This document shows positions 1 to 64,000 of a stretch of DNA of 64,000 bases, piece by piece (positions within the stretch are counted from its first letter, which is position 1; the number at the start of each line of letters is the position of its first letter). This DNA is from Candidatus Omnitrophota bacterium (GTDB lineage: Bacteria > Omnitrophota > Gorgyraeia > Zapsychrales > JAKLDJ01). The notes under the pieces are model-generated. The model was not told the origin of the DNA. It worked only from the letters and a program-made list of their open reading frames with translations, and ran no database searches. The DNA is taken from the NCBI GenBank assembly GCA_022703585.1, contig JAKLDJ010000001.1:246891-310890 (forward strand), written 5' to 3'. Made by a program: the position numbers and the translations under genes.

Positions 1-420
1 AAACCGGCAAGTTCTATGCTATGCCGGTTGGTGATTTCATAAAGTCCCGGCCAGGTCCCGATATTCGAAATAACCGCCGTTTTGCCCTTAAATTCTTTAA
101 TGCGCCGGGCTAAATGTTCAGGAGAAGAAAGATCTTCCTGATGCAAATAATAATCTTTTCCCGGAATGAGGCCGTTAAGCCTGAAATTCTCCTGCGCATG
201 AGACAACAATCTAAAGTCATTATCAATCAGATCAAACCTTGCCGCGCCTAACCGCCATGCCGCCAGCGCCAGGATTCCTTCTGCGCAGCCGGCATCAATA
301 ACGCGTTTACCGGCTAAATCACAATGGAGTATCGCCGCGATAGCGGAAGTCGTATAGACGTGATGGCGGTTTAAGGCAAATATGCATAAGTCGAGATCCT
401 GGATAAGAATAACGTTTCGG
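1..420 (-). CDS. SAM-dependent methyltransferase small domain (RsmC/PrmA-like). It is in the -1 frame relative to the giant ORF, has no in-frame start codon, is partial (runs off the window start), and is probably the C-terminal continuation of the giant ORF through a frame disruption.
   Basis: Translation: RNVILIQDLDLCIFALNRHHVYTTSAIAAILHCDLAGKRVIDAGCAEGILALAAWRLGAARFDLIDNDFRLL...IKEFKGKTAVISNIGTWPG. Motif I is VIDAGCAEG. The frame has an in-frame TGA at 469-471 upstream and no ATG/GTG/TTG start between that TGA and the domain. The giant frame ends TAA 372-374 inside this domain. Confidence 0.55.
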
Positions 421-21400: not shown

Positions 21401-24400
21401 TAATAATACCGTCTTCGATAATGAACTCAAACAATCCCTGTTTCGTCCGGTGCAAGGCTTCATAGTGGCCGTGAAAATGGGGTAAAAGCTGGAGTGTTGT
21501 TGCCAATATAAAATTAGCCGTTGGGGGACAGGGTGTTTTCCTGAACACCCGTATTGTCCTCCGGAATAAATGCTCAAGCTTATGCGGGGCAATGTCAAAA
21601 ACCTCAATAACGTTATTGTTCGATCCATCGGCGCGCGAAACCATTTTTAGGTCAATCGCACGATACAGATCGCTATACACCTCTCTGTCAAGCTCTCTCA
21701 TCCCGTAGGCATCGGCGGCAATCTCGGCCAGCATGCAGCGCACCGAGCCCTTGAATCCCGTATCAACGACAAGAACCGGTTTTTCCCGATGGCGAAGAAT
21801 ATCCGAAGCAATGCCAAAACCGTTCAGAAATTCTATTTTCGTTTCTCTGTTCGTATCATGTTTGATATAGCACATCAGGCATCCGCTCGCGGGCAGAAGC
21901 ATAATCTTTTGTTCATTCGGGGTACCGGCAAGCACGGTCTTAAGCGCGTCGTAGAACACTTCCGCGTCGCGCCCGGCAATTAAAATAGTGCTGTAGCGGT
22001 CGATTTCAGAAACAATCTTCGCCACCATAATTTCAAGATATGGCAGAAGATGCTCAAGCTCTTTGAACACAACGCTATCGTGCAGGGATTCGAATGAATT
22101 GTGCTTAAAAACCCGACGCGCGCCCTCTACGATATCCGTTATCCTTAAATTGTGTGCCGCAAGCGGCTCGGGACGCGGATGAGGATAGCGAAGCGCGTTA
22201 CTGATGTGCTCCGCTTGTGTCATTCCCGCCAACGCCATACTTACGGGCAAGACCATAAACGGCATAAACAAACACGCGAGCTCGGAAGTCGAATCTTCCC
22301 CTTTAAATCCGTCAGCGCGTATCCTGGCATCAGCCTCAAAGTAGCACTCAAAATCCCTCGTCCGGGATTCTTCAGCCCCCGAAGACGGCTCCCGGGAAAC
22401 TTTCATAACAAAATATAAATCTTGGTAATCAAGACCGAGAAACGCGACGATGTAACGGAAGCTAAAATCGGGATCTTTCTTGGCAGTTGCCATCAAATGC
22501 CCGCAGGCTTGCTTGTATTCCGTCTGGAACCAGCCGTCGGCATCCGTCATGCGCCAAAACATTTCCGCGATAGGTTCATACGGCTTAAACAAATCCGCGC
22601 CCATATTGCACATGATTCCGTTAAATCTTCCAAAATCTTTTTCAAACCGGTTCAATTGATCGGCATCGCGGTTATCCATCAAAACCGATTGAATGGTAAT
22701 CCGGGCTTCGCTTTTGGCGGCAAAAGATTCGGCGGTCCTCCTGGCCAATTTGAGCTTCTCTTCTGACAGGTTCGAGAGGACAATAATGATTTTACGGCCC
22801 TTGAGGGCTTTAGGATTTTGGAAGGAAATCGCAGAGAAGAATGCGTGAACATCATTTTGCTGGGCGGCGTTAATCCAATAGCGCAGCGTCTGGTCGGTGC
22901 CGTGCAAGGCGATATCGCGGGCGATTAAAGCTTCAAAATAAATCCAGGATTCGATATTAAATGTATCGCAGCAAACTATACAGTCACCTACTCCGGGGGC
23001 GGCTTTAAGATAAGAAATGTCCGGCGGGGCTCTGGAGGTAATAGACAGTTGCGTGGCCCTCTCCAACGGCCCGGCTTCGCTGAGACCTGCGAAGGCCGAA
23101 ACGGGCAGAAACACCAGCGGCATCAAGAACATAAAGGCGCGAAGCGTGTCTTTACCGGCGTCTTGCGTCGGTATCGGACGCTCAAAGGTCTGATCAACCA
23201 TCCGCAAGCTCAACGCCTCGTTAAGGCGTTTCGTGGCCTGGCCGGAAAGTTCTCCGGCGTCAATCTTTAACAGGTTTAACGTCATGATTTTTGTCTGGTC
23301 GACATCGGGCGGGTCTTTTTTGTATTCCTCATCGACGGAGAGAGAAATATCAACCTGAAGTGTAAAGTAAAGTTCGCTCACCATGCGGTAGCCAACAATC
23401 GCGTCCGCATAGTTTTTCTTCGCAAAACATTTTTCGGCATGAGCAAAGACACTTGAAATAGTCTCATATTGTTTTTTATAAGTCCCACCGGCGCGGTGGA
23501 ATTCCGCGCGCAGTGCCGCGTATTGCGCGCGCGCTTCGGGCGAGACATCGGCTGCAGCATCAATTATAGCGATTTGCCGCGCCGAGAGCGGCGGTGGTGG
23601 CAGTTGAGCTGTCCCGGCACAGCCGTTCAACAGAACCGGACAGAGGGCCAACACCACGGCCAGCAGAATCGGCAGCAGGCAATAGGATTCTTCAGCCTCG
23701 CCTTCAGAAAAAGAGAAATTCCTGCCGGCGTATTTCGCCTGCCAGGTTTCCGCGTCGCCGCCCATAATAAACATCCGGCCGCGATGCTGTTTGATGCGCA
23801 ATAATTCTTTAACCAGCCTTATTTCGCTGCCCTCATCCAACAAATCGGTGAAATTATTGGCGATAACCAGATCGGCTTGCCCGAGATATCCGCTCTCAAA
23901 GTCCATAATGTCGCCGCGAACAAGCTGTATCCTTTCACGATAAACGCTTAAATTGCGATTGACCTCCTCCATGACCTCAAGGGCCTGCTGCGCCATGGCC
24001 TGTAGCCCTTCGCCGACAGGGATCCATCTCTCGTCAAGAGCCGCCAAGATATCAAAACCATCTTGCAATTGCTGTTGCGCCTCTTGATGCAGCGTCTGGT
24101 CTTTTTCTATGGCAATAACTCGAAAATCAAAGGTTTCAAAATTCGGGATTTGCCGTTGTGCTTTGTTGTACAGCAACCACATCCAGCTCACGGCTTCCTG
24201 CCCGCGGGCTGAACCGGGGATAAGAATTCGAATTGTCCGCTCTCTGTCCCGCCGCCTGAGGGCAGTAATCTCTTTCACATTTCTGATAAATGTTTCTTCC
24301 TGTTCTGGATACCGCGCAAACCGGCTATACGAATCTGTCTGCCTTGTTAAGGTAAAAGAACGAAGCGCGATGTCCAACATCACATTAAGAAGGGGACTGT

Positions 24401-27400
24401 CGCCGCGCTCGAGTCTTTCGAAGACAACGCTGTAGCGTCCGTGATATGGGGCGCGGGTAAACAGCCGCGTATACCCAAATCGGGTGATGAAAAATTCTAA
24501 CCCCTCAAACAAGCTTAGCGGCTGACTTTGATATCTCCTGCCCAATGCCGTTAAGACGGTTCTAAAGGACTCACGGTCTACTAGCCACCCGGCCGGCGCA
24601 TCAAAACGCCCGAAGGAGAGCCGAACGTCTCTGGCATACCGCCACTGCATCCGGGCTGCCTCGACGGTCTCGGGCTTGCCTTGAATCTGTTCTCGCCAAT
24701 CCATCGCCCCTAATAATGGCGCCAGCGCAAATAGGGTTACAAACGGAACAAACGCAGCCACAGTATCCTCGCCATGAAAACCAGCGCGGCTATCGCTGAT
24801 GGGCAGGCGAATGATAACACGCACCGTATTCGCGAATTCTCTAATTTCGAGTGTTCCGTCGTGAACCTCTACTATTAAACGGCTTAACGGAATTCCAACG
24901 CCTCTCCCATGAGAACCCGTAACAAACCAATCAAAAAGATGCCCCCGCATAAAAGGCGCAATGCGTCCTTTGTTTTCTATTCTTACGGAAACAAAGCGTC
25001 CTTTCCTGCCGGAAATTATTCTGTGCTTAACAGCCACGTCTTCTTTGGAGGCACGCCATGCATTATAGATTATTTCATTAAATACCTTTGAGGGGCCAAG
25101 CCACACTTGCTGTAATCCATCAACACGGGCAGGCCCTTGAAAGGATGTTCGTTCCTTCAGAAATGAGTTAAGGCAAGAAGATAGCACCTCCTGAACATCA
25201 ACGGGATTAACCACTCTTTTTTCAAAACCAAGCAGCCAGCCTATTTGACTGGCGAGTATTGCTAATTCGGCGCTCAATTGTATCCTCTGCGTTGTCAGCT
25301 CTTGAAACTTTCTATCGGTTATCAATGCAAACAGGTCCTTGTTCTCGTCAGAATCAAATCCTTCCGCAACTACTGAACCCCAGCATCCAAACAAACCTTG
25401 GGCGCCTATTCGTATAACTGCCAGATAGTGGCTCATGGATTCTCTGTCTTCCAAAGACGGCCGGGGCCTGTCTAACCGGCCTTCCAGCATCCCGGCATAG
25501 CTATTAAAAAGCGGTGACGAGAAATCGTGGTAAAGCCAGGTATCGGCGATAACCGGCCACAATTTTCTCCAGACATGGACAACTACCTCATCTAAGAGAA
25601 ACTCGGCAAGCGGCCTGTCCATTCTTCCGGCATGTGATTGTGAAATGTCCTGAACGCGCTTAAAGAAAGTAACCGTTAAGCGTTTATCAGCGGAGAGCGA
25701 TCTGAGCATCCCCAGGGCGGTTGATTCCTTTTCGTTTACCATCCCCAAAAGCGGCACAAACATCATTGGTCCCAGGGCAAACGGCACCAGGCAGCCGAGA
25801 TCATCATCCAGCGACGGCTTTTGGGCCACAAAGCCGCTTAAATAGCTGACAAAACCCTCCGTACCGGGAATCGAAACCGCCTGGTCGGCAATAACAGAGA
25901 ATCCGGCATCCAAAAACTCTCCCCTGTAGACTTCAGGGGCTGCATGTACCGTTACCGACAGGATTTTAATTTCTCCTTCCGCAATTTGCCGAATGAGTTC
26001 TTGGGCCGTATAACGGGTTGCGTCAATGCCCTCTCCTTTTACGCCGCGCAATACCATCATCGGATACATTTGATGATCTTCCAGGATTGCCTCAAAATCT
26101 TTAGATACGATAATACCTGTTTCAACCAGCTGCCGGAGAACCTGCCTGTGGAGGGCATAGCTTTTGGTATACCACCGGCCGCGATTCTCCGTCGGCATAA
26201 CACGCCGATAGTCCAGGAATGATACAAGTCCGCCCGGCTTTACGATACGGAATATCTCGCTTAAGATCCGGCGGCGTTTAGAAAGCAAGGGAATCATATT
26301 CAAGGCGCGATGGAACACCGCCGCGTCCAATACGCCTTCCGGCAAATAGGCCTCTTCGGCTAAATCCGCCTGCTGATAAGAAAGGGCCGGCTGAGGTGAA
26401 TTCTTGAGATGCATCAAAGCCACAATCGCGGCCGTCGCCTCCTGATAATTAAGGGATTGTGCTAACGCATTTGAACGGGAGGCGGCCACATACCGGTGTT
26501 CTCTCTCCAGACCAAGAACATTAAATCCTTGCCCATACAACCATTCACTGATTTGACCCGCACCCGAACCGACATCGGCAACAACCATCCTGTCATTTTG
26601 ATTCAGTTCCTGCCGCGCCTGACTTTGAAGTATCCGCGCCAAAACCACGGGATACGTATGCATATAACTGACGTCTTCTCTTCCGCTAAAGTAACCCCAA
26701 TTTGTCAAAATCCGCTGTTGGTTGACGCCCGCTACTAACCTGGCAGCATGCCTTGTTTTCATCAGGCGCGGGTCTCGTATTATTCTTGATTGTGAAATAC
26801 CTTCAAGCCTAGGCATAACATTGACATCGTCTTGTTCATCCTCTACGGCAGCCAGGGAAGTTAAGACCAAAGACCAGAGACCAAAGACTAGGTTTAAATC
26901 GGCGACGAGCATAAACGCGCCGAGTGCTTCAGCTGCCTCCGGAGATGCGGATAAGAGCTTTTCACCATCTGCCCAGTGTGCATTGCGGAGCATTTCTTCC
27001 AAAACAGCCTGCGTTGCTTTGGCTGCCGCCGGGTTTTTGCTGACCCGCATAAACTGCGACTCTTTTCCCGAAAAGGCCCTGAGTATGTCCATAAGAGTCT
27101 GCGAATTGACATCTACCCCTATTCCCAGTGGTGTTTCCCCGGGCTCCCGTTCGAACCCACCAAAAACCAATGCGGCAACGCGCGGTTCTGAGCCCGACTC
27201 AACGATTACCAGAGGCGAACCCGAATCACCGGGAATAGTCTCAACCCGATCGGAGCAAATGCTCCCAGAATCCCTGTGAAGATATCCCGCTGATACCCTG
27301 TTTTCCCCGGTCAATACCCTATTTCTACCGCTTACGAGAATTGCCAATGTGTTATTTCTCCAGGAAAAATCAAAAGGCATAGGCTGAAGGCTGCCAGCCA

Positions 27401-30400
27401 CCTTATCAATGGGTACCGCAAGAAATGCAATATCGTCCTTGGGATCATCTGGCTCAATGTCCGCCCTACGCACCACAACCTCTGCCCTGGCAACAAACCT
27501 GGCTCCATGCCTGCGGCCTCTTAAAACGGCAATCGTTTCCTCGTCACACACAACGTGTGTAGCAGTAGCCAAAATATAATAACCGAACTCTTTGCCGACG
27601 ACAAAAGTGCTTCCCGACCCCTCTCTTCCCGACTTCTGCGCTCCTGGCGCATGCGTTCTCGGTGCCGGCTTTCCGGGCGCATAACCATGTTTTAGCTTGA
27701 ATACACTGTTCGCGAACACACCCTGCCTGCAGCGCTCGCGCAGGAGGTCTTCAGCGCGCGTTTTCACAAGAAGCCTATTCGCTTCTTCTTGTTCAAGTCC
27801 TTTTTTAACCCGGGCGATTTTTTTGTCTGCTATTGTATCCAGCACATACCAATAGAAATGTTTACTCAGAGACGCGACTATAATACCCACGAATACCCAC
27901 GAACACACGGCGTCGAGCCCGAACAGCGCACTCGATTCTTCGGCCGCAAGTTCTCCGGCGGCGGCTGTTTTCTCCCGTTGGGCCGCGTCAAGAGTGGCAA
28001 TCTCAGATTGTTGAGGGCCGAAACGCCGCGCACGATTAAGCATTCGTTTTGAACGGATAATATCCTGAGAGGTCACCCACTGCTGGGCCAAGACATCAAC
28101 CTGCGCAGTCTCAATCGTAAGCAATTCTTTTAATGCGGCTTGCCAATAACCGCCGCTAACTACCGCCGTACTGACGCCAAACCATCGCCCAACCATGGCG
28201 GGCCCGGGAAGCGTGTCCGGATTATTGTCTTGGACAAATTGTACGAGCTCCTCAACGATTGCACTAACCGGGTTACGCGCGAACCGCGCCGCTCTTCTGC
28301 GCCGGATATCAGGCTCTAGGCTTAATAAATCGAGCGCCTCATACCAATGCGGGTTAAATATCTCTTCCGGCCAGCCAAAATGAATCTTAACATCCCGGCG
28401 GCGGGGAAGCTTAACAACCGACGGGTCATCGAGTACCCGGTTAAGATAGCGAACAATCGCGCCGGTTAATTGCGCCTGGGGCACCATAACTCCTTGGGCA
28501 ACAAGAACGGCGCAAACACCGTCCCAGCGTTCCCGTACGTAATTTTCGGTAAAACCAAACCACGCTGGTATCATTTTTATAGACGGAAAAGTGCCATATT
28601 CCGCGGCATACCGAATAATCTCATCGGTGATTGCTTGTGTTTTATCCGTCGCGAGTTCAAACCGGGCAGAACGCTGCAGCGAGGCGTTTCCTTCTTGTTC
28701 GATTGCGCTTAATACACCTCTTCGGTAATATTTGCGGATAATCGTTTCCTCCATCCCGAACCAAGCGCCAACAATGCGCGGATGGGGCACGGTATTTTTC
28801 GCCCGCTCAAGGATAGTTGTCGTAATCGTTTGAATGGGGTCCCGTTTATAGCTGACGGCGCGGCGCATCGTTTCATCGCCCTCCACCAGCAGAATATCAA
28901 GCGCATCCTGATAATCCGAAGCGATAAAGGTGATACCGAAACGTTTGAGGATTTCATTTTCCGAGGCAACATACCGGCGCAGCAAATCATCCTTAAAATC
29001 TTGCATAAGCGCTAATGCAATGGTACGCGGCCGGGTGGCGAAATTTTCGAAGCCTGCCGCCATTTGCACCCTGCCGGTAGCGAGCACAAACAGCATTTCC
29101 ATGGTTGTCGCCCAATAGCGCCCAACCACATGCTTAGAAAGACCGGTTAAGATCGCCACTTCTTTTTGCATAAGCATTCTGATTCTTTCGTCGTCGCGGG
29201 AAAACGCCGCAGAGACAGCATAAAACATGCGCTCAACAATTCTATCGGCATCTGTCAGGCTGTCCTCGCTCATCCGTGAGCTGATAACCGCCCTCTGAAG
29301 TTCGCTCTTGCGCATTTCCGGCAACCAGCACGTGCCCGCCGCATACGCCGCCGGCTCAAAAGGCGCCAAGCGGTTTACGGCAATAAAATAAATGATTTTT
29401 GAAACATGGATTGTCCGGGCAATTGCTTCCGGCACCTGCCCCACGGTATTCTTCCGGGCAGCCGAAAGCAATGTATCTTCATCGTTCTCGAACATAACCC
29501 GCAACCGTTCAATAATCGCCTGACGCAAACGGCACATAACAAATTCGCTGACACCCAGTTCACGCGCAATAGCACGCTGGGTTACCCCGGCGCGCAAACT
29601 CCGGATAATATGTTGCTCCCTCGGTCCCAGCCGGGGCAGATATTTATCAAAAATAAGCGCGACAAACTCGTCCTTGCCAAGCCTTTCTTCAACATCCGGC
29701 ATAGACGAACCGGCAAGCACATCAATTTCTCCGGGCGTCATTTCTTCGCCGTCCGACGCTAAAGAAGAAAACGGCACAATGGTTGCCGGCCCGCGCAAGA
29801 AGGCCTGAACCTGCTCTTCTTTTAATCCTGCCTTGCGGGCGATATCCTCGACACCCGGATAACGATTGCCCTCCATCTCAAGCGCGTGGCGGGCTTTAGC
29901 AATATCACGGCGAATATTATTAACCCAGCGGGATGTCCATCCTTCCCTTCTCGCTTGGTCGAGCATCCGATTGCGCACTTTTGATATAACATGGCTGCGC
30001 AATGACATCCCCCGTGAAGAGTCATAGGTCGTAAGCGCCTGCTGCACCCCTTCCCAGCCGCCGCTGGTCAAGGTTTCCCATTCGCTCGGCATGCCAACCT
30101 TCCAGGCAATCTGATGAGCCATACTGCGGACAACCGATTCCCACTGCGCATACTTTTGCTCTTCCTGCATCCTGCCTATCATCATAAAAGGTAAAATGAA
30201 ACAACCCAAGGCCTCGTCTGCTGCGTCGGCTGCGGGATGAATTACTTCTACAGATGCATCGCTGCTGCCGTTGGATGCGGCTGCCTTCTGAGCGGGAAGA
30301 ATATTTGCACGCGGCCCTGCAGCGCTATCGCGTATCGGTTGAGCGATATGATATGTATCAATCATCGCCATCACTTTCTTCAAATATTTCAAAAATACCG

Positions 30401-33400
30401 CTCGATTAGCGCCAAACAAAGCAGCAAGCTTGGGGCAACTCGGCAGCCCGTCGTACCCTGCCGCCCGACAGATGGGCAATATTGTATCTATGATTGTTTG
30501 TACCGGATCTTGAGAAAATCGCGCAGCCCGTTGTAACCGTTCATTGTCATCCGTAGCGACAATGTCAAGCGCTTCATCCCAATGAGGTTTAAAGACCTTC
30601 CGCACCCCGCCAAAGCGAATGCAGACAATCCGCCATTCCGGTATCTTTAAGGCAGCCGGGTCTTTAAACATATCTCTCAGGTATCCAACAATAGCTTCAG
30701 CAAGATTATCTTCGGAGGGTACCAATCCCCGTTCGGCTAACAGGGTAATAGTGTCAACCCAATATGGCGCAATATTGTTTCTATCAATGCCAAACCAACC
30801 GGAGACGACAGTCTGCCCGGGAACACCCTCATCGGGATGCTCGCGCATCCAGAGTTCTATTTCATCAGCAATCGCCGTGACGGGATTGCCGTGTTCGCGA
30901 TAGGCAAGGTCATACCGCGCCAAACGCCGCAACGCCACCGGACCTTCCGCAATCACGAGCTCCATCGCGCCCGACCAATACAATTGAGAAACCGCTGTCT
31001 GGCTCATGCCTATGCGCTCTGCCATTTCGCGATGCAATGGCAGGGAATCGCGGTATTCCTTCAAGATAATATCGGCAATGAGCCGGGAGGCATTCCCTTC
31101 TTTCGTTGCTAAGGCCATGGCTATTCGCTGTAGCGTTGCCGGATCTCGGGTATACGAACGGCTTTCCTGTGCTACGATAGAAAGCGCTTGTCGATAACGC
31201 GACCAATAATCGCTATTGGGCATCCGCAATCCGAAACGCCGCGCAACCTCTAGGCCAGAGAGTACGCGCGATTGATTACAGTTATGCTGAAATTCATGTA
31301 ATATCTCAAGTGCAATTGCCCGGGCTCGGTAGTCAGAAAGCGTAAACCGGGCAATTTGCTGAACGCGAAAATCAGAGCTAAGAACAATGAGGGCTTCGAC
31401 TGCCTGGGTATAATAGGGGCCTATATGAGACGCTGGCATTCCGAGGTCTCGCGCTATTTTTGACGGCAAGGGAAGGCGTGCATACCTTCGAGAATTCTCC
31501 ACAGCGTCTTGCAATGCATAGTAAATACGAACGGTTGGGGTTCGATGCTCTTCACCTAAAAACAACAAATCAAAATAATAATCAACATCAATTACTGCTT
31601 CGGCTTGATACTCCGGTATCTCAAACGGGCTTTGATACCCTTCACCCGAGTGAAACGGAAAACGTTCATTAACGAACTGGCAGGGCTTAGCGCTTCGCTC
31701 CTGACTTTTTAAGAATACCTCCAGGCTGGTGATACCTAGTGCCCGAAGCTGCGGATGCGAACGCAATAATATAGGATGTATCCTGCTGGTGAACTGGGTA
31801 GAAACTGCTGATTCTGTTACCGCAGGAGTTCGCCGCCCGGCCAATACCTTAAGCGACACACCGTCAAATTTAAATTCCATAAAGTCATTAATCAGTTCCT
31901 CGGGAATCCGGTATCGACGCAATATATCCCGTATAGCACTACGGATACGCGCCAAATCATAGCCAGCCATCTCGATAAATCTATGAGCATTTAAATCTTT
32001 TACATTAACTCGTATTTCGTCCTCTCCGCCGCTTCCGGCTACCGCCGCCTTCTCCGCCAGGCCTTCAAGAGAAACAGTCCGCGAAGCTTTTGAAAGCGTA
32101 ACTATCCCGTTGCGCTTTTTCCCAGTGATTCCTTGCGCCCGCAGATAGTCGATGATAACGGTGTCAATAATATTCCTGAAGGCAAGTGCGTATAATTTCT
32201 TTATTCCTCTCACGCCCGGCACAAAAGGCTCTGTACTGCGGACAGTCGTGTAGCTGATAGCTTCTTGATAAACACGCAATGCCAATTCCTGGTATTCGTC
32301 CGAATCAATGCCATAAAAAGCATACGACAACAATCTATTGGCAATAGCCCCGCGAAGGCGCGGCACCATAATATTGAGGAGGGCCTCATAGGAATATTCT
32401 TCACCTTCATAAATCAGTTCCAATAAGCGCGCCGCCTTCTGGTCTGCATCGTCTATTGCCAGCGCTTGTTCTGCGGCACGACGATCCTGGTGCGTCGGCT
32501 GCCATATACGAGAGGAAGAACAAGGCACAGCGGTTATATTTAAAATTTTCCGCATTTTGTCAATGCCGCCGTAAATCGCAATCGCGCTTGCAAAACGTCC
32601 GCCCATGACCTGGGTATCAAAGCTCTCAAGCGAAATACCTGCTTTGATCAGTTCCAGGCGCATATACGCCGCGGCAATCTCAACGGGAATATAGCGCCAG
32701 GGAATAAATTCGTTATAACGCTCACAGCGCGCGATATAATCCAGCCAAAACTTAAAGAGTGTTGCTGGCCGCGCATCCGGCCGGGATAACGCGCACTGCA
32801 GCCGATATAATGCCTCTATGAGGTATTCGGATTCGGTTTCTTTACATGAAAGCAAGAGACCTTTCAGTGTTTTGTTATTAAACGCCTCAATTGGCTTGTT
32901 AATAAAATCATTAACCGTTAAATCCCATACCGTTTTCTTGCCGGGCTCGGCCAGGAGCATATCGACAAACGCTTTTAGAACAGCAAGTCTCTGCTTACGC
33001 GGCAGCGCGTGAATATCTTGCCAGAAATTCATGTAGCCTTTGGGCGGAGAGGTTTTAAAGCGCTCGATATAATCCTGTGCTGAAACTTCAGCGCGCTGCG
33101 CCGAGACCATCCCGAACAGACAGAATACGCTTAAATCCAAGAAGGGCAGAAATGCGAAAAGCTCATAACCGCCGTCATTAAAATTGACATACGCGTGCGT
33201 GTAGCGCCGGGCCAAATCAACAATAGAACGACGGATTAACGCCTGGAGTTCCTCGGAGGAAATGCTTTGAGAAACCAGCGGCCCGGCCCATTCACTCAAT
33301 AAATCCTGATTAAAAATACAATCTTCGACAAAGCTTTCCATTTGTCGGCGGAAGTCAGCCGGTAAATCCGGAGCCATGGTCGCGACAATCTGCTTGGTGT

Positions 33401-36400
33401 CGATAACGCCGGTATCAAACCACGCTGCAATTTCCTTTCTGCAATCATCACGCGCCGCGCCCAATAACGGTAAAACCGAGAATAAGAACAGCGGCAGCAC
33501 AAAGCAACCAACGCTCTCGGGCCCGCGCTCATCAGCGGCAGACGGTACTGTTTTGTTTAACTCCAAAATAAGAGAATGGATATTCGGGGTTTCACTCGCG
33601 GTCTCAAGACGCAAAACATCCGGCTTTTGCGGCCATGAAAGGGGAACCAATTTCTCGCTATCGCCGACCGCAAGCGCCAGGGTGCGATAAAAAGCAATTT
33701 CACTATCGGCGCTAACACTGCCGGTTACCATTAAATAAGAAATACGTTCAACCAGAGATGATTTGATGATTCTTGACGATGATATCCCGGGGTGGCTGCG
33801 AGGCAGCAAATCTGCCTGCCAGTCAACAACCTGACTGATGATCTTGTTATCTCGTAAGGACATATCGATAGAGGGATTAAACTCTATTTTCATCAGGCAG
33901 GCTATGCCCTCCAATGCCCCGCCGATGGCATACAGCGCCCGGTGGCCTTCTCCGGGGAACAATCGATTAAGTACCTCCCTGTTTTCGGACTTGGCATTGA
34001 GGATAGCACTGACGATAATAACCTGTCTGCCGGCCTCGACATAAGTCTGTTCGCCTAAGGAGAAGATAAATCCGGTCGCCGAATCAGTTGCGGCGCGCGG
34101 TTGTTCTACAACGGGCTCATCAACCTTGGGCTCATCGGCCGCGGATACCGGCGCCGGTGACTCACTATCGTCTTTAGGATCAACATCAAAAATGGCGGGA
34201 AGGCGCAACTCAATCAACACGTGGTCCGACCACGACTGGAATGTGGCGTTTCCGTCGATAAAACTATTCAGCAAAATATCTGTCCCCTGAGCCAAAGTCT
34301 CAAGCCTCAATGTGAATATCTTTCCTTGAGACGATGATAGGTTATAGAAAATCGAAATACCTAATATGCTTTTTGCTGAGCCCGGATAGTTGTCAATGGT
34401 TATGACGGCCTTATATGCATTACGCAGAATTACAGTAGAAACAAATTTCGCGATAATCGCCTGCAGCGCCTTTCGATAGGTATCATCAAGGCATTGAATA
34501 AGCACCGGCCGGTGCCACATAACATCCCAAGAGCATTTGTCGCTTGCGTCACGGCTAATATCCTCGAGCATTTCAATAAGGTCAAAGGCTAACTTTCCAC
34601 TGCTATCCACAACCTGCAATTGTTCTCTATCGGGCTCATCGACTACGTGCGTGACCATAAGCGACTTATCGTTTCGCGGCTTGCCTTCAGAAGCGATAGG
34701 AAGGTAAAATTCAACCATCGCGCCGTCTTTAAGAGGGAATAACACCGCACTGCCGCCAAACGTACGCGTGAGAAATTGATGAGCGTCTTCGGCAAACGAC
34801 GACAATAGGCTCGTCAGAAACTGCCCGTCGGGCGAGGCCAAGTCATAAGAAACAGAGATAGAAACCGGAACACTTTCTATCAGTTCGGTGTCGGTTTTAA
34901 CGGCGACGGTGGCGCGCTCCGCGTAAAATAGCGTCTTTGAAGAAATAAATCCGGCAATATAGGCTTGAAGCTCATCCCAGTACTTTAAATCCCCGCATTC
35001 AATAAACACCGGCTGATCCCAGGCAATATCCCAACGGCATTTGTCGTCCGCGATGCGATGAATATTGCGTAACATCTCAGTAAGATTAAACGCCGACTCC
35101 TCACCATCATCCATCCGGCCGACAAGAAACGGGATGCCGATAAACAGCAGATAACAGCCCAAGGCATTATCTTCTGACCTTGCCGTTTTCTTCCGACGCG
35201 ATTGCGTACCCTTATCTACCCTGCCGCGCTCGGAAACAGGCACGGAGGTACCGGCCGCAGCAGCCATGGATTTGGATGCGACAGCCGGCTCTTCAGCCTC
35301 GACCAATTGTGCCAATGCTCGGTCCGTGCTCAACATACTGAACATCGCGCTTACGGCTTTAATGCTGTAACCACTTTGCACGCTAGCCTCTTTGATGTCA
35401 AAGCCATCAACCAGCAAAGGCAACACGGCACGCGCCACCGCGCGGTGCTCCTTCGGCAAACGGCGAGCAACCTGCTGAATCAACGCCCATGTTTCTTCAA
35501 ATTCGTACGATTGCTCCGGGTCTTCGAAGGAGCTGCGTCCAACGATAATATTAAAGCCTCTCTCTGAGGGTGCTTCAATTCGCTGTTTAGTCATTCCATG
35601 ATGCGCAAAAGATTCATTTTTAGGATAGTGCTTTTTCCTCGGGATGACGGCTATCTGCACGCGCCAATCCGGATGTGCGGATAAAATCGGCAATACTTTT
35701 GGATAATGAAAATCAATACCCTGCCGGGTCACGCCAAAGAGGGCCGCGATTTCGGGTTGCGCCGGGAAGGAATGAACGCGGCTGGGGTCCTGGACATATT
35801 TTTCATTCAAAAGCTCTATCAGGGCATTGGCGATGGTTTGCTCCGGAGACACAAAATAGTCAATGGCACGACGTATCCGCAGATTATCGCCCGCGCGTTG
35901 CCTTAGGGCCGTGACGATCTCTGCCCGGTGACGATGTAATGTTCGCAAACTGATTCCAAAAAGACGGACGCTGGTATTCGATTCCCACGTCTTATGCAAT
36001 GTCCGCGCAACGGGTTTGTCCTGGAGAGCAGTAAAGATAATGTCTACAGTCTTTTCTAAGTCAAATTTCCTCCATGCCTTTATCGGAGAGAGTTTTTCCT
36101 GCTCTGCTGCCGGTTTAACGGCGCCAAGGAGAGAAATAAAGAACAGCCCCGTCCATAGCCCCAGGGTGCAGAGCAAATCTTCTTTGAAATCATCGGGCGC
36201 TATTTGTTTAATATTTAACGACACCTGCGGTTTAAGCGGTACTAAGAATACCGTCACCCTGCCCTCTGTATTTCTCGCAACAACAATATGCGGGGCATGA
36301 TAACCGCCTTCGCGCAAATCATAATAATGCCTGTTCCCTCCCTGATCCTGCCGCGCCCGCAACCAATCAGCATCAGCATCAGCAATCGGCCGGGCACCGA

Positions 36401-39400
36401 ATTTATCACGATAATAAGGAACGCGCGACGGTATTGGATCCAGGGTCAGGTACTCGATGGCATAGGTCTCTTTCAAGGCCTCAATGAGTGCGGTTTGCAT
36501 AATTTCATCGAGATTAATAAGCTTGCCCGCACTGCCACGGTACGCGGGAGCAATATACAGGTCATGAACATCAGTTTCGCGCAAGTCGCCAAACGCCCAA
36601 CCGAAACAAATATCACGGCCCTGCATTGCCTTGATGGCACCAGGAGTAAAATCAACCGGCATAACTACCCGCTGAAGATGCGGCAGCACGTGATCATCCT
36701 GAGGACTTACGACTGCGTCAATAAATCCTATATGCCGCTTGGTATCCAGGTCAAAGATATCTAGCAGAAAACAGTGGCGCTGGATAGACTCCTGATCACG
36801 GCGCAGCGTAAAGAATAGAGAAACCGCTCCTGCGCGGTAGATGGCATAGCCCTTATCCATTAACTCGCGGAAGCTGAATATGCCGATATCGACCGGAGAC
36901 ACTTTCTTCATATCCGATGCGCCCGCATCCACCATCCCTATAATCGGCAGCCAGGCCAAAGGCAGCAAGAACACGCAATGCACATCGGTATCCGTATCAG
37001 ACGTCAGCGGTCCGTCAGCGGCTACGTCCCGCAAAACCTGCGCGCGCAACGCCAGAGCCCGCTCGTAGAGGTCGCGAAAGAGCGCCGTTTCCAGAAAATA
37101 TTGTTTCAGCTGTTCGATGACAACAAATGACTCTCTAAAATACCGATACAAAATTTCTTGGGATTTCGTAAGGTTATTACTGCGACGTTTTGTCTCAATG
37201 ATATCTCTGACAACTTCTTCGACGCTCGGTTGCGACTGATCCCATCGATACGACCGCGTGCAGTCAAACATGGCATCGACCCAATCAAGCACATGAATAA
37301 TATGAAGCGCCATGTTCAGAGCCCGTCGAAGACTGCGCGGCAGCAGCTGATATTCCGGCAATGATGAGACGCGATCAGGCGTGTGGTGATACGAAACGAT
37401 TAATTTAAGAGCCCGCAGCATGTTGATGTATTTCAAAATGGCATCCTGGTCTTGGGCGTCGAGCTTAAAATAGCCGTTATCGAGCAGTATCTGTTGGAGA
37501 TTAAGCAGCCCCGGCGCACGCTCCTCCGCATTAAAAATCTTGATACTGAGCCACCCGAGCTCTTGGGAGAAATCGTCGTTAAAGATCATCTGCAGATACC
37601 GGTAGAGCCGCCGCGGATTAAGGCTAAACAAAAACCACGATTCTTGCGCATGCTGCTGCACAATCACAAGCTCGCTGGCAGTCAACCTGCGCGGCTGGCG
37701 AATTAATTCGGCGATGGTAACCTGCCGCACATCCGTGCCGTCATGAATGGCAAACCGGCGCGGCGAATCCTTGCCTAAATCATGCAGTTCGGCCGCGGAG
37801 CACAAGAGCCGCTGTTCCTCGGGAGAAAACATTTCCTGCGGCATGATAAATCGGCGTATGATTTCGATAGTCTTGCCACGGATAACCTTGCCCGGCCGCA
37901 AATACAAAACATCACGCACGCCTTTTATTTCGCGCTCAATAGCAGTAATATCAGCCAAATGGACGGCATGCGCCAGCTCTTCCTCTAACAATGTAAGCAC
38001 ATCGCGCACAAAAGATTGCTGCCGGTCGGTTAGCGGTGCGCCGTCTGTTAATGACCGTTCAATATCTGTAATGAGATCATTCCAGCCATTGCCTACCAAT
38101 GCCGCTTCCTGGCTTACCCGCCAGGCATGGTGCTGATTGTATACGTCACAATAAAGCGACAAATGCGAGGCAGTGAAAGACCCTCCGATAAACTGCAAAA
38201 GTTGATGTTCCCACGCAAGTTGCTGGAGCACGGCCCTGAAGTACTGGTCATCGCTCAGTGCCTCCGGATATTGAGTCGTCAGCCTCTCAATTGCCTTGAG
38301 GATACTCGCAAACTTCCGCTCTGTTTCCTGAACATCGGGCACCTGCACCATCATTCCGGTTAGCGGCAGGAAGGATGGAGACCACAGACTAAAGACCAGA
38401 GACCAAAGACTAAAAAGATTGGATACATCAGCCAACGGCAGCAGGATGCCGTTAAGCTCATCGCTGTCAGCCCTGGCAACAACACCATAGGCAAAGACGA
38501 CTCCGCTGGAAACAAATCTTAAAATCTGAACCTCTCCAGCCGGAACTAAACCTGCGTCTTTGAAGAATTCTTCAACGGTTTGGTTTTGAAAGAGCCGTTT
38601 TTCTCTATTTAATCTCTCGACGATAAGATCGTTTTCAGGGGAAATATATTTCCCGACTTTAATAACGGGAGAATCCGGATGGTGCATCAGGACAACGCAC
38701 AGGCCACCGGGTTTAAGGACTCTACGAATAGACTTAAGGGCCTTTTGGGGAGCGGCACAGTATTCAATGGTAAATTTCACCACAACAATATCCTGGGACC
38801 GGCTTTCAATCCGAGAAAGCGTTTCGGCGTTATCAACAATGACCTGGATCTTCGGATACGCTCTTATCCCAAGACGAACCACATCAACTAAATCAACCGC
38901 TGTTATCGCCGAGCCTCGGAATTCCCTTAAAAGACGTCTGGACAACTGCAAGGCCCCTGCCCCAACTTCGAGGATATTTAAAGGCTGTGCCCTATCCGAA
39001 GCAGAAGTTTCCTGACGGGTGCGAATGTTGTCGACAACCCAGTCGTTGAGCATATTTTCATTCAACGGACCAAAAGAAGAATAAGAAAGGCCTCCTAACT
39101 TGTTTTCCCAATATTCGCGCCAGGCCTCGGCCATAGCCGCCTCTTCTTCGACGGCGGCCCGGCCAAAAAAGGCTAGAAGGCTGAATAATCCTATAAATAA
39201 ATCAAAAGGCAAGGCAAAGACAAACGAGTGAAATTCGGCAACGGCGGTTTTTTCGGAAAGGAAAGAAAAGATTGCCCCAACTTTTTCTGAATGCATTCCT
39301 GCATATCTCAAGGATAAGTTGGGACTGTTTTGCTTTCCTTGAATAAGCTTTTTAAGAAAAGCAAAAACCGCCATACCGAAGGAGCTATCCCCCACCAGCC

Positions 39401-63746: not shown

Positions 63747-64000
63747 GTCAGGAACCACATGGCAAACAAATCCCAGGGCAGCAAGGGTCCGGGCGGTAAT
63801 AGCCTGGAAGAGATTGCTGTGATACCGTACCTCATGGCCGTAATTCGTCTGATAAGGGAAGTACGCTCCCTTGTTATAAAGAATCTTCACCATAAGGCCT
63901 AAGGATAACGATGTCAGCAGCCTTTCAAAAGAATTCTTAATAACCCGGGTATCGTGAATATCGGTAATATTCATCGCATGCCTGATACCGGCGATCGCCA
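63638..64000 (-). CDS. 5-prime continuation of the giant ORF in a different frame. It encodes the N-terminal part of the phosphohexomutase (PGM/PMM/GlmM-like) module, ends at TAA 63638-63640, overlaps the main frame, and runs off the window end.
   Basis: Translation in frame +2 reads ...IHDTRVIKNSFERLL...ITARTLAALGFVCHVVPDNAATAIWN. The main-frame sequence TSTMGKFFNFVLSFCGTSSHSPSNVDGLK continues it (SASHNP-like active-site Ser motif). Protein-level continuity across the junction implies a 1-nt frame disruption near 63715-63725. Confidence 0.5.

What the first reader, a model, noticed from the sequence alone, without database searches (positions are those of the whole stretch)
28250..32350. Second sigma-70-like module, embedded between a different family of ~90-100 aa tandem repeats
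Regions 2 and 4 are both verified (GWEGVQQALTTYDSSRGMSL at 30000 and LGPREQHIIRSLRAGVTQRAIARELGVSEFVMCRLRQAIIERLR at 29500-29640). Arrays of RAARF...VGAWFG...PHW.EALD units sit on both sides. Two paralogous sigma-plus-repeat modules suggest the mega-protein contains duplicated regulatory cassettes.
Basis: partly seen in the sequence, partly recalled or inferred. Interest (0 to 1): 0.7.

Follow-up and report, generated by a model that had tools for sequence, protein, structure and literature searches.

The report
Sigma-factor domain inside a giant gene
A complete but divergent flagellar-type sigma factor domain, flanked by two six-unit blocks of a rare helix-turn-helix repeat, lies inside a single open reading frame of more than 21,000 codons, an arrangement not described for sigma factors and a possible handle on whether giant bacterial proteins are cut into working pieces.

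Summary
The coding strand is minus. One frame has no stop codon across all 64,000 bases, so there is a single ORF of at least 21,332 codons. Window 29481-30149 encodes a full FliA/WhiG-like sigma domain with regions 2, 3 and 4. It scores E 8.5e-22 against the FliA_WhiG profile and E 1.6e-20 against an independent FliA HMM. All top-50 Foldseek PDB matches to its AF2 model are sigma factors. It is 35% identical (E 4e-27) to a better preserved copy at 18246-18935.

The flanking repeats are real, but the units are 63-71 aa long (starts 59-77 aa apart), not 90-100. There are six on each side, and the two blocks are colinear duplicates (Smith-Waterman z = 43). One unit folds with pLDDT 92.7 into a four-helix HTH-like domain. 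No Pfam model covers it, and only about 10 credible relatives turned up among 1.84 billion representatives. None of those carries a sigma domain.

The array next to the second sigma is an unrelated, very basic 82-aa family. So the sigma domains are paralogous, but the cassettes as wholes are not shown to be.

My working model is a tethered or latent sigma-like module, possibly released by proteolysis. This is inferred, not shown. The first copy has lost the sigma-28 type -35-contact residues.

The parts
3..63998 (-). Single open reading frame that runs off both ends of the window (at least 21,332 codons). Residue i of its translation occupies window 63999-3i to 64001-3i.
   Evidence: 0 TAA/TAG/TGA in this frame against about 650-1,400 in each other frame. 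In-frame Pfam domains occur along its whole length: Dus, Maf, CheR, several methyltransferases, NUDIX, Trypsin_2, HATPase_c, Sigma70 twice, Peptidase_M48, Bac_transf, Glyco_transf_9.
33105..33161 (-). Hydrophobic, TM-like segment (aa 10280-10298) that opens the inter-hydrophobic stretch holding the sigma-1 cassette.
   Evidence: Kyte-Doolittle 19-residue mean of 2.17. This is a crude predictor and the topology was not resolved.
31572..33104 (-). 511-aa stretch of unassigned function (aa 10299-10809) upstream of the repeats. It holds a weak, unconfirmed signal resembling region 2 of an ECF sigma factor at aa ~10503-10600.
   Evidence: No Pfam hit at E<=10. No PDB sequence hit. Only two NCBIfam ECF sigma models at E 0.02-0.08. 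hhalign against the FliA alignment scores no better than shuffles.
30339..31571 (-). N-side block of six A-type HTH-like units, N1-N6. Window coordinates: 31368-31571, 31149-31361, 30927-31130, 30717-30914, 30534-30734, 30339-30533. These are aa 10810-11220.
   Evidence: Iterated HMM converges on 13 units. Alignment A1. Shuffle control.
30150..30338 (-). Low-complexity linker (aa 11221-11283). It ends in a truncated hydrophobic junction motif, LGCFILPFMMIG (window 30174-30209).
   Evidence: Sequence. The motif recurs at the start of full hydrophobic segments elsewhere in the ORF. Here the Kyte-Doolittle 19-residue maximum is 1.3, too low and too short for a TM helix.
29481..30149 (-). Sigma-1, a FliA/WhiG-like sigma-70-family domain (aa 11284-11506). 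Region 2 is at window 29934-30146, region 3 at 29724-29909, and region 4 at 29499-29639.
   Evidence: Pfam r2 1.1e-6, r3 1.9e-6, r4 0.005. TIGR02479 8.5e-22 over positions 5-223/224. TIGR02937 43.8 bits against a cutoff of 42.9. Independent FliA HMM 1.6e-20. AF2 domain pLDDT 85-92. All top-50 Foldseek PDB hits are sigma factors, E down to 1.3e-7.
29268..29480 (-). 71-aa spacer between sigma-1 and the C-side block (aa 11507-11577).
   Evidence: No A-type unit and no Pfam family detected.
28098..29267 (-). C-side block of six A-type units, C1-C6. Window coordinates: 29070-29267, 28866-29066, 28677-28865, 28479-28676, 28299-28499, 28098-28298. These are aa 11578-11967. The block is colinear with N1-N6.
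   Evidence: Colinear block similarity between aa 10824-11210 and aa 11590-11956, BLASTP E down to 8e-23. Smith-Waterman z = 43. MAFFT aligns the two blocks end to end. The best reciprocal unit pairs are N2-C2 at 35% and N5-C5 at 38% identity.
27873..27929 (-). Hydrophobic, TM-like segment (aa 12024-12042) that closes the cassette.
   Evidence: Kyte-Doolittle mean 2.15.
27207..27614 (-). Trypsin-like serine peptidase domain (aa 12129-12264), the next recognisable domain after the closing hydrophobic segment.
   Evidence: Pfam Trypsin_2, 6.2e-9, 37.2 bits against a cutoff of 27.6. Weak MarP-family hit at E 0.0096.
35664..35873 (-). Isolated thirteenth A-type unit (aa 9376-9445), about 1,370 aa upstream of the cassette.
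   Evidence: Seed HMM iE 7.4e-8, 18.8 bits. It was not in the seed.
18246..18935 (-). Sigma-2, the better preserved paralogous sigma domain (aa 15022-15251).
   Evidence: TIGR02479 1.3e-36. Pfam Sigma70_r4 1.8e-16. FliA HMM 1.3e-41. It keeps the FliA region 4.2 motif GVTESRACQIHAKA.
18999..21116 (-). Array B: eight units of 82-83 aa (starts 81-103 aa apart) directly N-terminal of sigma-2 (aa 14295-15000). It is a different family from array A, is strongly basic, and has R/Q/P-rich linkers.
   Evidence: Each unit scores 108-125 bits against the unit HMM. Net charge +82, pI 10.7. No significant similarity to A units. No PDB sequence relatives.

Best explanation
Shown:
- The region is one segment of a single giant minus-strand ORF of at least 21,332 aa. 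The ORF is of the multi-enzyme kind, punctuated by hydrophobic segments.
- Between two hydrophobic segments (aa 10280-10298 and 12024-12042) lies a cassette. In order it holds: about 510 aa of unassigned sequence; six ~65-aa helix-turn-helix-fold units; a linker; a complete group-3 (FliA/WhiG-like) sigma-70 domain with sigma2, sigma3 and sigma4; a spacer; and six more units. The second six-unit block is a colinear, ancient duplicate of the first.
- The sigma domain is a diverged paralogue of a better preserved copy 3,700 residues downstream. That copy follows an unrelated, very basic repeat array.

Inferred mechanism, about 0.3-0.35 on its own:
- The sigma domain is a tethered or latent sigma-like module on the cytoplasmic side.
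- It keeps the sigma fold and the region 2.2 hydrophobic pattern that sigma factors use to bind RNA polymerase core. It could therefore dock RNA polymerase at the giant protein, or be cut out by proteolysis. The ORF carries its own trypsin-like and M48 peptidase domains, the first of them directly after the hydrophobic segment that closes the cassette. Once released it could act as a free sigma factor. Known precedents are ECF sigma factors fused to transmembrane anti-sigma extensions and the pro-sigma E/K precursors.
- The flanking near-neutral HTH-fold arrays would then act as built-in partner-binding or autoinhibitory scaffolds, not as classical operator-binding domains.
- Sigma-1 has replaced the conserved FliA -35-contact motif (TESR..QIH has become SEFV..RLR) and the region 2.3 aromatic residues. 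If it still initiates transcription it does not read sigma-28 promoters. Sigma-2 is the more likely functional initiator.
For: - ORF: 0 stop codons in 21,332 codons, with in-frame domains along the whole length.
- Sigma identity: Pfam r2 and r3 above cutoff. FliA_WhiG profile 5-223/224 at 8.5e-22 and TIGR02937 above cutoff. An HMM from stand-alone FliA proteins hits only the two modules. AF2 domains at pLDDT 85-92. All top-50 Foldseek PDB hits are sigma factors, including sigma-28/FlgM and WhiG/RsiG.
- Continued sigma-type constraint: sigma-1 and sigma-2 are identical at 46% of FliA-invariant columns against 30% of other columns (Fisher p = 0.034). They share 7 derived states.
- Repeats: 13 units. 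The two blocks are colinear.
- HTH homology: relatives found with the unit profile (P0015 at E 1e-12) hit many HTH Pfam models, for example HTH_5 at 7e-11 and GerE at 1e-9.
- Anatomy for tethering and release: hydrophobic segments bound the cassette, and Trypsin_2 follows the closing one.
- No Shine-Dalgarno-preceded in-frame start codon at the module boundaries, so separate translation is not indicated.
- Precedents: fused or membrane-bound sigma factors activated by proteolysis, such as IutY and ECF52 SCO4117 (PMC8999054). Cleavage of giant proteins has been proposed but remains open (10.1101/2023.11.21.568195).
Against: - No RNA polymerase binding, DNA binding or cleavage was tested, or could be tested, here.
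- Sigma-1 keeps only 23 of 58 near-invariant FliA columns. It lacks the FliA region 4.2 contact residues and the region 2.3 aromatics.
- Pfam region 4 is below threshold. The FliA_WhiG score of 78 bits is far below the family cutoff of 189.6.
- A-type units are near neutral overall (block net charges 0 and -2) and most recognition helices are not basic. This argues against classical DNA binding.
- Topology could not be resolved. Charge flanks of successive hydrophobic segments are mutually inconsistent, so a cytoplasmic location is assumed, not shown.
- No orthologue or relative of the cassette was found in any collection. Conservation, and therefore selection on the cassette, cannot be assessed.
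- None of the other proteins carrying A-type units has a sigma domain.
Confidence: 0.45

Rival explanations
1. Exapted or decaying sigma relic. A fliA-like gene was captured into the giant ORF and duplicated. Sigma-1 now serves only as a helical structural or protein-binding spacer, together with the HTH-fold repeats. It has no interaction with RNA polymerase or promoters.
For: - Sigma-1 retains 23 of 58 FliA-invariant positions.
- It has lost the TESR..QIH recognition motif and the region 2.3 aromatic residues.
- Pfam r4 is subthreshold.
- The flanking units are near neutral.
- Published giant ORFs are described as poorly conserved, with few annotated domains (PMC10066038).
Against: - All three sigma domains still fold confidently and match only sigma factors.
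- Identity between sigma-1 and sigma-2 is concentrated at FliA-invariant columns (p = 0.034).
- Sigma-2 keeps an almost canonical region 4.2 (Sigma70_r4 at 1.8e-16). At least one copy therefore looks functional.
- A 64-kb stop-free frame argues against neutral decay.
Confidence: 0.3
2. In-situ nucleic-acid organiser. The cassette is never released. The sigma domains and HTH arrays together anchor DNA, RNA polymerase or nascent RNA to the membrane-bound giant protein. This would feed the many RNA- and protein-modifying enzyme domains on the same polypeptide (Dus, Maf, PrmA-like, CheR-like, NUDIX).
For: - Array B is extremely basic (net +82, pI 10.7), which suits nucleic-acid binding.
- The ORF is rich in RNA- and protein-modification domains.
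- There are no internal start signals.
- One relative carrying A-type units lies directly upstream of rimP-nusA-infB.
Against: - The A-type arrays flanking sigma-1 are not basic.
- Nothing shows nucleic-acid binding.
- The domain co-occurrence may simply reflect the mixed content of giant ORFs (10.64898/2026.06.07.730766).
Confidence: 0.15
3. Artefact. The long frame comes from misassembly or a chimeric contig, or the sigma region is a separate gene merged by a sequencing error.
For: The window's source was not found in any searched collection, so the assembly could not be checked independently.
Against: - A frame with no stop over 21,332 codons cannot arise by chance or by joining unrelated pieces, given about 650-1,400 stops in each other frame.
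- Composition is even along the window.
- Recognisable domains stay in the same frame on both sides of both sigma modules.
- The junction motif recurs throughout.
Confidence: 0.03

Closest known systems
FliA/WhiG (sigma-28) group-3 sigma factors (NCBIfam TIGR02479; structures 1rp3, 6pmi, 6pfv, 9wsf)
   Same: - Colinear regions 2.1 to 4.2; the profile aligns over positions 5-223/224.
- Same three-domain fold.
- The nearest database relatives are stand-alone FliA proteins at 22-29% identity.
- The MLD..R...W..R motif of regions 2.4/3.0 is retained.
   Different: - Scores 78 bits against a family cutoff of 189.6.
- Has no start or stop codon of its own and sits more than 11,000 residues into a giant ORF.
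- The region 4.2 motif TESR..QIH is replaced by SEFV..RLR, and the FETYA aromatics by LRSHV.
- No FlgM- or RsiG-like partner was identified.
ECF sigma factors with fused regulatory or transmembrane extensions (IutY; ECF52 SCO4117; ECF48/53; ECF36; ECF42 with TPR repeats), reviewed in PMC8999054
   Same: - The sigma domain is covalently joined to non-sigma extensions that include repeats or membrane segments.
- Activation is by proteolysis or by conformational change.
   Different: - Those are group-4 sigma factors with only sigma2 and sigma4, and extensions of at most about 400 aa on one side.
- Here a group-3-like sigma with sigma3 is embedded on both sides in more than 10,000 aa.
- Its flanks are HTH-fold arrays, not anti-sigma, SnoaL or TPR domains.
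Pro-sigma E and pro-sigma K of Bacillus subtilis (established knowledge; not tested here)
   Same: A sigma factor made as an inactive precursor and activated by membrane-associated proteolysis.
   Different: The pro-sequences are about 20-30 residues at the N-terminus of an otherwise free-standing protein. There are no repeats and no giant carrier.
Giant multi-enzyme ORFs of Omnitrophota (10.1101/2023.11.21.568195; 10.64898/2026.06.07.730766; PMC10066038)
   Same: - Length well above 10,000 aa.
- Many hydrophobic segments.
- The same recurrent domains: Methyltransf_11, HATPase_c, NUDIX, HEAT_2, glycosyltransferases and peptidases.
- The same open question of whether the protein is cleaved.
   Different: - The main texts of the two giant-gene preprints do not contain 'sigma' or 'helix-turn-helix', and the 2026 preprint also lacks 'HTH' and 'DNA-binding'. 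In PMC10066038 'sigma' occurs only in a supplier's name.
- The taxonomic origin of this window could not be established. No related locus was found.
Uncharacterised proteins carrying the same A-type repeat (P0012, P0013, P0014, P0015, P0016, P0019, P0020, the last being MFH1378920.1 'ARMT1-like domain-containing protein')
   Same: - Tandem arrays of the same unit (LP...E[IV]A..[LF]G....[HY]W..[IL]L), E from 5.6e-37 to 1e-6.
- Several are large multidomain proteins with methyltransferase, GNAT or ARMT1 domains and hydrophobic segments.
- P0013 has the same junction motif.
   Different: - Their units repeat about every 80-95 aa, against 59-77 here.
- None contains a sigma-70 domain.
- One, P0012, is a free-standing 1,117-aa gene.

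Membership tests
Sigma-70 family (sigma-1, window 29481-30149) | Region 2 domain (PF04542) above the curated cutoff | tested here: met
   28.8 bits against a cutoff of 24, E 1.1e-6.
Sigma-70 family (sigma-1) | Region 4 HTH domain (PF04545 or PF08281) above the curated cutoff | tested here: inconclusive
   PF04545 scores 16.7 bits against 24.1 (E 0.005), and PF08281 12.7 bits. However, the FliA profile aligns through position 223/224, the stretch is colinear with sigma-2's strong r4, and it folds as HTH helices at pLDDT 88-90.
Sigma-70 family (sigma-1) | Superfamily model TIGR02937 above cutoff | tested here: met
   43.8 bits against 42.9. This is marginal.
Sigma-70 family (sigma-1) | Three-domain sigma2-sigma3-sigma4 fold | tested here: met
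   AF2 with a 13-row alignment gives domain pLDDT 85-92 and a disordered 3.2 linker. All top-50 Foldseek PDB hits are sigma factors, aligned over 224-268 columns, E down to 1.3e-7.
Sigma-70 family (sigma-1) | Binds RNA polymerase core and directs promoter-specific initiation | not testable with these tools
   Only sequence patterns are available. The region 2.2 pattern L.S.G...V..A[IL]..[FY]D is retained.
FliA/WhiG subfamily (TIGR02479) | Score at or above the subfamily cutoff | tested here: not met
   78.0 bits for sigma-1 and 126.4 for sigma-2, against a cutoff of 189.6.
FliA/WhiG subfamily | Conserved region 4.2 -35-contact motif (G-V-T-E-S-R-x-x-Q-I-H) | tested here: not met
   Sigma-1 has GVSEFVMCRLRQ. 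Sigma-2 keeps GVTESRACQIHA. The assignment of these residues as DNA contacts rests on general knowledge of sigma region 4.2, not on a test here.
FliA/WhiG subfamily | Free-standing protein of about 220-280 aa | tested here: not met
   The domain is embedded in an ORF with no stop codon for at least 11,000 codons upstream and 9,800 downstream. There is no Shine-Dalgarno-preceded in-frame start codon at its N-boundary.
Helix-turn-helix fold superfamily (A-type repeat unit) | Helix-turn-helix core within a small helical bundle | tested here: met
Helix-turn-helix fold superfamily (A-type repeat unit) | Membership of a described HTH family (Pfam) | tested here: not met
   No Pfam family matched more than 1 of the 13 units, and the best E was 0.013. 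The PDB profile search gave only GntR-type hits at E 0.09-1.4. hhalign against sigma region 4 gave probability 5.9%.
Helix-turn-helix fold superfamily (A-type repeat unit) | Binds DNA | not testable with these tools
   Net charge of the blocks is 0 and -2. Only 3 of the 12 cassette units have pI of 9.4 or more. This leans against DNA binding.
Giant multi-enzyme ORFs described for Omnitrophota | Single ORF above 10,000 aa with many hydrophobic segments and scattered enzyme domains | tested here: met
   At least 21,332 aa. 44 hydrophobic segments by a Kyte-Doolittle scan, which is crude. The domain repertoire overlaps published lists.
Giant multi-enzyme ORFs described for Omnitrophota | Encoded in an Omnitrophota genome | not testable with these tools
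   The source and its relatives are absent from genome contigs and metagenome contigs. No rRNA or marker gene lies in the window.

The most novel reading that the evidence does not exclude
Giant bacterial proteins can carry their own sigma factors. The two embedded FliA-like domains would be functional RNA-polymerase-binding modules, either acting while tethered to the membrane-anchored polypeptide or released from it by the protein's own peptidase domains. The giant protein would then be a self-regulating polyprotein. Its state (assembly, contact with prey, cleavage) would be reported directly to transcription. The previously undescribed HTH-repeat arrays would act as built-in anti-sigma or co-factor scaffolds.
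Probability: 0.25. Interest if true: 0.85.

Novelty: new variant of a known kind. Interest (0 to 1): 0.62.

Why it matters
Sigma factors are known as small, free-standing, diffusible subunits of RNA polymerase. The known fused forms are ECF-type, with short extensions on one side.

A group-3-like sigma domain, present twice in a polypeptide of more than 21,000 residues, would be a new architectural context. Each copy sits next to a tandem array of small helical domains.

It also bears on a question the giant-gene literature states openly: do these proteins work as one chain, or are they cut into pieces? A sigma domain must meet RNA polymerase and DNA. Its location and processing state can therefore be tested directly, by pull-down, N-terminomics and in vitro transcription. 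The result would also fix the membrane topology of one segment of the protein.

The A-type unit is in addition an undescribed, very rare HTH-fold repeat family, with about ten credible carriers among 1.84 billion representative proteins.

Tried and rejected
- BLASTP of the region against the whole translation missed the internal repeats, because HSPs contained in the self-hit are culled. Chunked all-against-all BLASTP and Smith-Waterman with shuffles solved this.
- TRF finds no tandem repeats at the DNA level in either array.
- Homology of the A unit to sigma region 4 or to the B unit was not demonstrated. hhalign gave P 0.006-0.027 and probabilities below 6%. The alignments are in HTH register only.
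- A third, ECF-like sigma domain at aa ~10503-10750 was suggested by eye and by two NCBIfam hits at E 0.02-0.08. Pfam, the PDB sequence search and hhalign against shuffles do not support it. I treat it as unconfirmed.
- The C-terminal tail of relative P0012 looked like sigma region 4, but it has no Pfam sigma hit.
- The source or relatives of the cassette were sought with the search for homologous proteins three times, genome contigs twice and metagenome contigs twice. Only ordinary stand-alone FliA proteins at 22-29% identity and one RpoD-like protein were found.
- Membrane topology from charge flanks gave mutually inconsistent orientations and was left unresolved.
- There is no internal translation start with a Shine-Dalgarno-like sequence at the boundaries of sigma-1, sigma-2 or the cassette.
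- I tried to build a multi-unit alignment for structure prediction of inter-unit packing. MAFFT simply re-aligned the overlapping pieces, giving an effective depth of 2. I used it only as evidence that the two blocks are colinear.
- The literature libraries hold no mention of sigma domains in giant proteins.

Full report
**Frame and context**

The reason is that one minus-strand frame has no stop codon at all over the 64,000 bases. It has 0 TAA/TAG/TGA in 21,332 codons, against about 650-1,400 stops in each of the other five frames. The ORF therefore runs off both ends of the window and is not listed.

Residue i of this translation occupies window 63999-3i to 64001-3i. Pfam finds in-frame domains along the whole length:
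- Dus, Maf, OGFr_N, CheR (twice), ARMT1-like
- several SAM methyltransferases, PrmA-like, NUDIX
- Trypsin_2, HATPase_c, Sigma70 (twice), HEAT_2, Peptidase_M48
- Bac_transf and Glyco_transf_9

A crude hydropathy scan finds 44 strongly hydrophobic 19-mers spread along the chain.

This matches published descriptions of giant multi-enzyme ORFs of Omnitrophota: methyltransferase, HATPase_c, NUDIX and HEAT content, many TM helices, and lengths up to 85,804 or 147,155 aa. I could not establish the taxon, because no related locus was found.

**The sigma module**

The evidence for aa 11284-11506 (window 29481-30149) is:
- Pfam Sigma70_r2 (28.8 bits, cutoff 24) and Sigma70_r3 (28.3 bits, cutoff 25.3) pass. 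Sigma70_r4 does not (16.7 bits, cutoff 24.1).
- NCBIfam FliA_WhiG aligns over profile positions 5-223 of 224 at E 8.5e-22. The superfamily model TIGR02937 is just above its cutoff (43.8 against 42.9). All subfamily cutoffs are missed by a wide margin.
- An HMM that I built only from eleven stand-alone FliA proteins, returned by the database search, hits the 21,332-aa translation at exactly two places. These are aa 11284-11506 (1.6e-20) and aa 15022-15251 (1.3e-41), each covering HMM positions ~30-257 of 260.
- AlphaFold2 with a 13-row alignment gives three well-predicted helical domains (pLDDT 85-92) joined by a disordered linker in the position of region 3.2.
- All 50 best Foldseek matches in the PDB are sigma factors: SigD, SigB, sigma-28 with FlgM, WhiG with RsiG, sigma-A and sigma-S. 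E goes down to 1.3e-7 over 224-268 aligned columns.

So this is a complete group-3-like sigma-70 domain. It is 34.7% identical over 222 aa (E 3.8e-27) to the second module at window 18246-18935.

The two copies share derived states relative to FliA, for example FETYA changed to L[RK][ST][HW][VI], DELR to DQAR, and W.PRS to W.SR. Their mutual identity is concentrated at FliA-invariant columns: 26 of 57 against 48 of 162, Fisher p = 0.034. This indicates descent from a common, already embedded ancestor, with some continuing sigma-type constraint.

Sigma-2 is the better preserved copy. It keeps 30 of 58 invariant columns, scores 1.8e-16 on Sigma70_r4, and retains the region 4.2 motif GVTESRACQIHAKA. 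Sigma-1 keeps 23 of 58 and reads GVSEFVMCRLRQ at the same place. From general knowledge of sigma region 4.2, those are -35-contacting positions. Sigma-1 has therefore lost or changed sigma-28-type promoter recognition. That last step is an inference.

**The repeats**

Ordinary BLASTP hid the repeats, because internal HSPs are culled under the self-hit. Chunked all-against-all BLASTP shows that aa 10824-11210 is similar to aa 11590-11956, with E down to 8e-23. A Smith-Waterman alignment of the two sides scores 245, against 30.7 +/- 4.9 for shuffles.

A seed HMM of eight units recovered four further units that were not in the seed, at 18.8, 15.8, 14.5 and 2.0 bits. It gave nothing above -0.9 bits in 40 block-shuffled translations. 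Iteration converges on 13 units:
- six N-terminal of sigma-1 (aa 10810-11220)
- six C-terminal of sigma-1 (aa 11578-11967)
- one isolated copy at aa 9376-9445

Units are 63-71 aa long and their starts are 59-77 aa apart, not 90-100. The consensus is QRAARFEERNPTQAIADELLEEVRDPRYDRLPSQREVAARFGMSRAVVDPYWQEALEILAAEGDV.

RAARF is the start, WFG is the turn of the HTH, and PHW.EALD is the third helix, but in that exact form only in units N5 and C5.

The two six-unit blocks are colinear, N1-N6 with C1-C6. The best reciprocal pairs are N2-C2 at 35% and N5-C5 at 38% identity, and MAFFT aligns the blocks end to end. A differentiated six-unit block was therefore duplicated as a whole. Nothing remains at the DNA level.

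**What the unit is**

With the 13 paralogues as its alignment, AlphaFold2 predicts a compact four-helix domain (pLDDT 92.7, pTM 0.80) with a helix-turn-helix at residues 33-57.

Structure searches give only generic matches, as expected for 67 residues:
- Foldseek finds nothing below E = 1, with sigma-A region 4 and NarL at the top.

At the sequence level:
- No Pfam model covers the unit.
- A PDB profile search gives only GntR-type HTH hits at E 0.09-1.4.
- The top three hits of that search (E 1.7e-5 to 9e-4) are de novo designed TIM barrels. They arise from four summed repeats of 4-7 bits each, with per-stretch i-Evalues of 73-400, and I take them to be spurious.
- hhalign to sigma region 4 is not significant.

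A full HMMER scan of 1.84 billion representative proteins with the unit profile found 22 proteins at E <= 1e-3. About ten are credible: P0012, P0013, P0014, P0015, P0016, P0019, P0020, P0023, P0024 and P0032. The best-scoring seven carry tandem arrays of three to thirteen units; P0023, P0024 and P0032 have only one or two. Features of the relatives:
- Several are large multidomain proteins. P0014 (4,047 aa) has FHA, WD40 and methyltransferase domains. P0015 (2,119 aa) has GNAT. P0020 is annotated as ARMT1-like.
- P0013 has the same hydrophobic junction motif as this ORF.
- The near-identical units of P0015 hit many HTH Pfam models, such as HTH_5 at 7e-11 and GerE at 1e-9. Through homology this supports the HTH assignment.
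- None of these proteins or their contigs has a sigma domain.

The family is thus an undescribed, rare HTH-fold repeat. Its link with a sigma domain is so far unique to this ORF.

Electrostatics argue against classical DNA binding by the A units. The block net charges are 0 and -2, and only three of the twelve cassette units are basic.

**The other cassette**

Directly N-terminal of sigma-2 lie eight units of 82-83 aa, with starts 81-103 aa apart (aa 14295-15000). They are much more alike (each 108-125 bits against the unit HMM) and have R/Q/P-rich linkers. The array is very basic, with net charge +82 and pI 10.7.

It has no PDB sequence relatives and no significant similarity to the A units. 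Its sequence pattern, NHPLTK.IIMS.LGVN.SFIRNYK.KMN.DL, looks like an HTH, but I did not test that structurally.

The 'two paralogous sigma-plus-repeat modules' are therefore paralogous only in the sigma part.

**Anatomy of the cassette and the mechanism**

The sigma-1 cassette lies between hydrophobic segments at aa 10280-10298 and 12024-12042. About 90 residues after the closing segment comes a trypsin-like peptidase domain (Pfam 6.2e-9). An M48 peptidase lies further downstream.

A truncated copy of the recurrent junction motif precedes sigma-1. The motif is an acidic stretch followed by [C/A]F[VIL][LFM]P[FL] and then a hydrophobic run. The copy here is too short to span a membrane.

There is no in-frame start codon with a Shine-Dalgarno-like sequence at the module boundaries. 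Topology could not be derived, because the charge flanks of successive hydrophobic segments give contradictory orientations.

On this basis my best explanation is a tethered or latent sigma-like module. The sigma domain would dock RNA polymerase while attached, or be released by proteolysis. The flanking HTH-fold arrays would act as partner-binding or autoinhibitory scaffolds. Three precedents exist:
- ECF sigma factors fused to transmembrane anti-sigma extensions and activated by regulated proteolysis (IutY, SCO4117), or fused to TPR repeats (ECF42) (PMC8999054).
- Pro-sigma E and pro-sigma K (established knowledge).
- The published but untested proposal that giant Omnitrophota proteins are cleaved by their own peptidase domains.

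Every functional step is inferred. The main rival is that sigma-1 is an exapted or decaying relic and only sigma-2, if either, is functional. A second rival is an unreleased nucleic-acid organiser serving the many RNA- and protein-modifying domains on the chain. An assembly artefact is very unlikely, given the 64-kb stop-free frame.

**Novelty and score**

The sigma domain and the HTH fold are known kinds. What appears new is:
- the context, a group-3-like sigma embedded twice in a giant ORF
- the sandwich between two duplicated HTH-repeat blocks
- the repeat family itself

In their main texts the two preprints on giant Omnitrophota genes do not contain 'sigma' or 'helix-turn-helix', and the 2026 one also lacks 'HTH', 'DNA-binding' and 'transcription'. 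In the third paper 'sigma' appears only as a supplier's name. A combined literature search returned nothing. Supplementary tables were mostly not available.

I rate it a new variant of a known kind, with interest 0.62. It would surprise a specialist, and it offers a concrete test of the open question whether giant proteins are processed. But function is unproven, sigma-1 is partly degenerate, and no second example of the cassette could be found.

Noticed in passing
window 3-63998, minus strand: The whole window is one stop-free reading frame of at least 21,332 codons, open at both ends. It carries more than 20 different enzyme-like Pfam domains, many of them RNA- or protein-modifying: Dus, Maf, PrmA-like, CheR, NUDIX, ARMT1-like.
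   Followed up: partly
window 18999-21116 (aa 14295-15000): Array B, next to the second sigma domain, is extraordinarily basic (net charge +82 over 706 aa, pI 10.7) and has R/Q/P-rich linkers. This suggests nucleic-acid binding. It has no PDB sequence relatives, and no database-wide search was run with the B-unit profile.
   Followed up: partly
aa 5566, 6745, 9009, 10165, 13909, 14257 and, truncated, 11266 (window 30174-30209); also protein P0013: A recurrent junction motif occurs at the start of many TM-like segments. It is an acidic or Ser-rich stretch, then [C/A]F[VIL][LFM]P[FL], then a hydrophobic run. Upstream flanks are on average acidic (-1.3 against a background of -0.1). The same motif precedes the A-type repeats in an unrelated metagenomic fragment. 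It could be a membrane-insertion or processing signal.
   Followed up: partly
window ~32202-32492 (aa ~10503-10600): A weak resemblance to region 2 of ECF sigma factors, upstream of the repeats. Two NCBIfam ECF models match at E 0.02-0.08. Pfam, the PDB sequence search and hhalign against shuffles do not confirm it.
   Followed up: yes
window 34128-35093 (aa 9636-9789 and 9804-9957): Another tandem duplication, of a domain of about 155 aa (35% identity, E 1e-25), with no assigned family.
   Followed up: no
window 35664-35873 (aa 9376-9445): A single orphan copy of the A-type HTH unit, about 1,370 residues upstream of the cassette.
   Followed up: partly
window 27207-27614 (aa 12129-12264): A trypsin-like serine peptidase domain (weakly MarP-like) directly after the hydrophobic segment that closes the sigma-1 cassette. 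The layout recalls a site-1 protease placed across the membrane from a tethered sigma factor.
   Followed up: partly
aa 10014-10191 vs 15604-15757; 12348-12404 vs 19811-19873 (and 12345-12385 vs 16819-16854); 17595-17620 vs 18638-18667: Short similar stretches recur around hydrophobic segments in distant parts of the ORF (E 1e-4 to 1e-6). This suggests a repeated linker-plus-anchor element.
   Followed up: no
L004 9890-16249 (GCA_974883765.1, contig CDFPXV010000035.1): P0015, a 2,119-aa relative with three A-type units at its N-terminus, lies immediately upstream of an NTP_transf_5 gene and the rimP-nusA-infB operon.
   Followed up: no
L003 (JGI 2020627003, contig BDM_C4294): The contig carrying P0013 has a fifth A-type unit in a shifted frame. 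It is probably a frameshifted fragment of a longer gene.
   Followed up: partly
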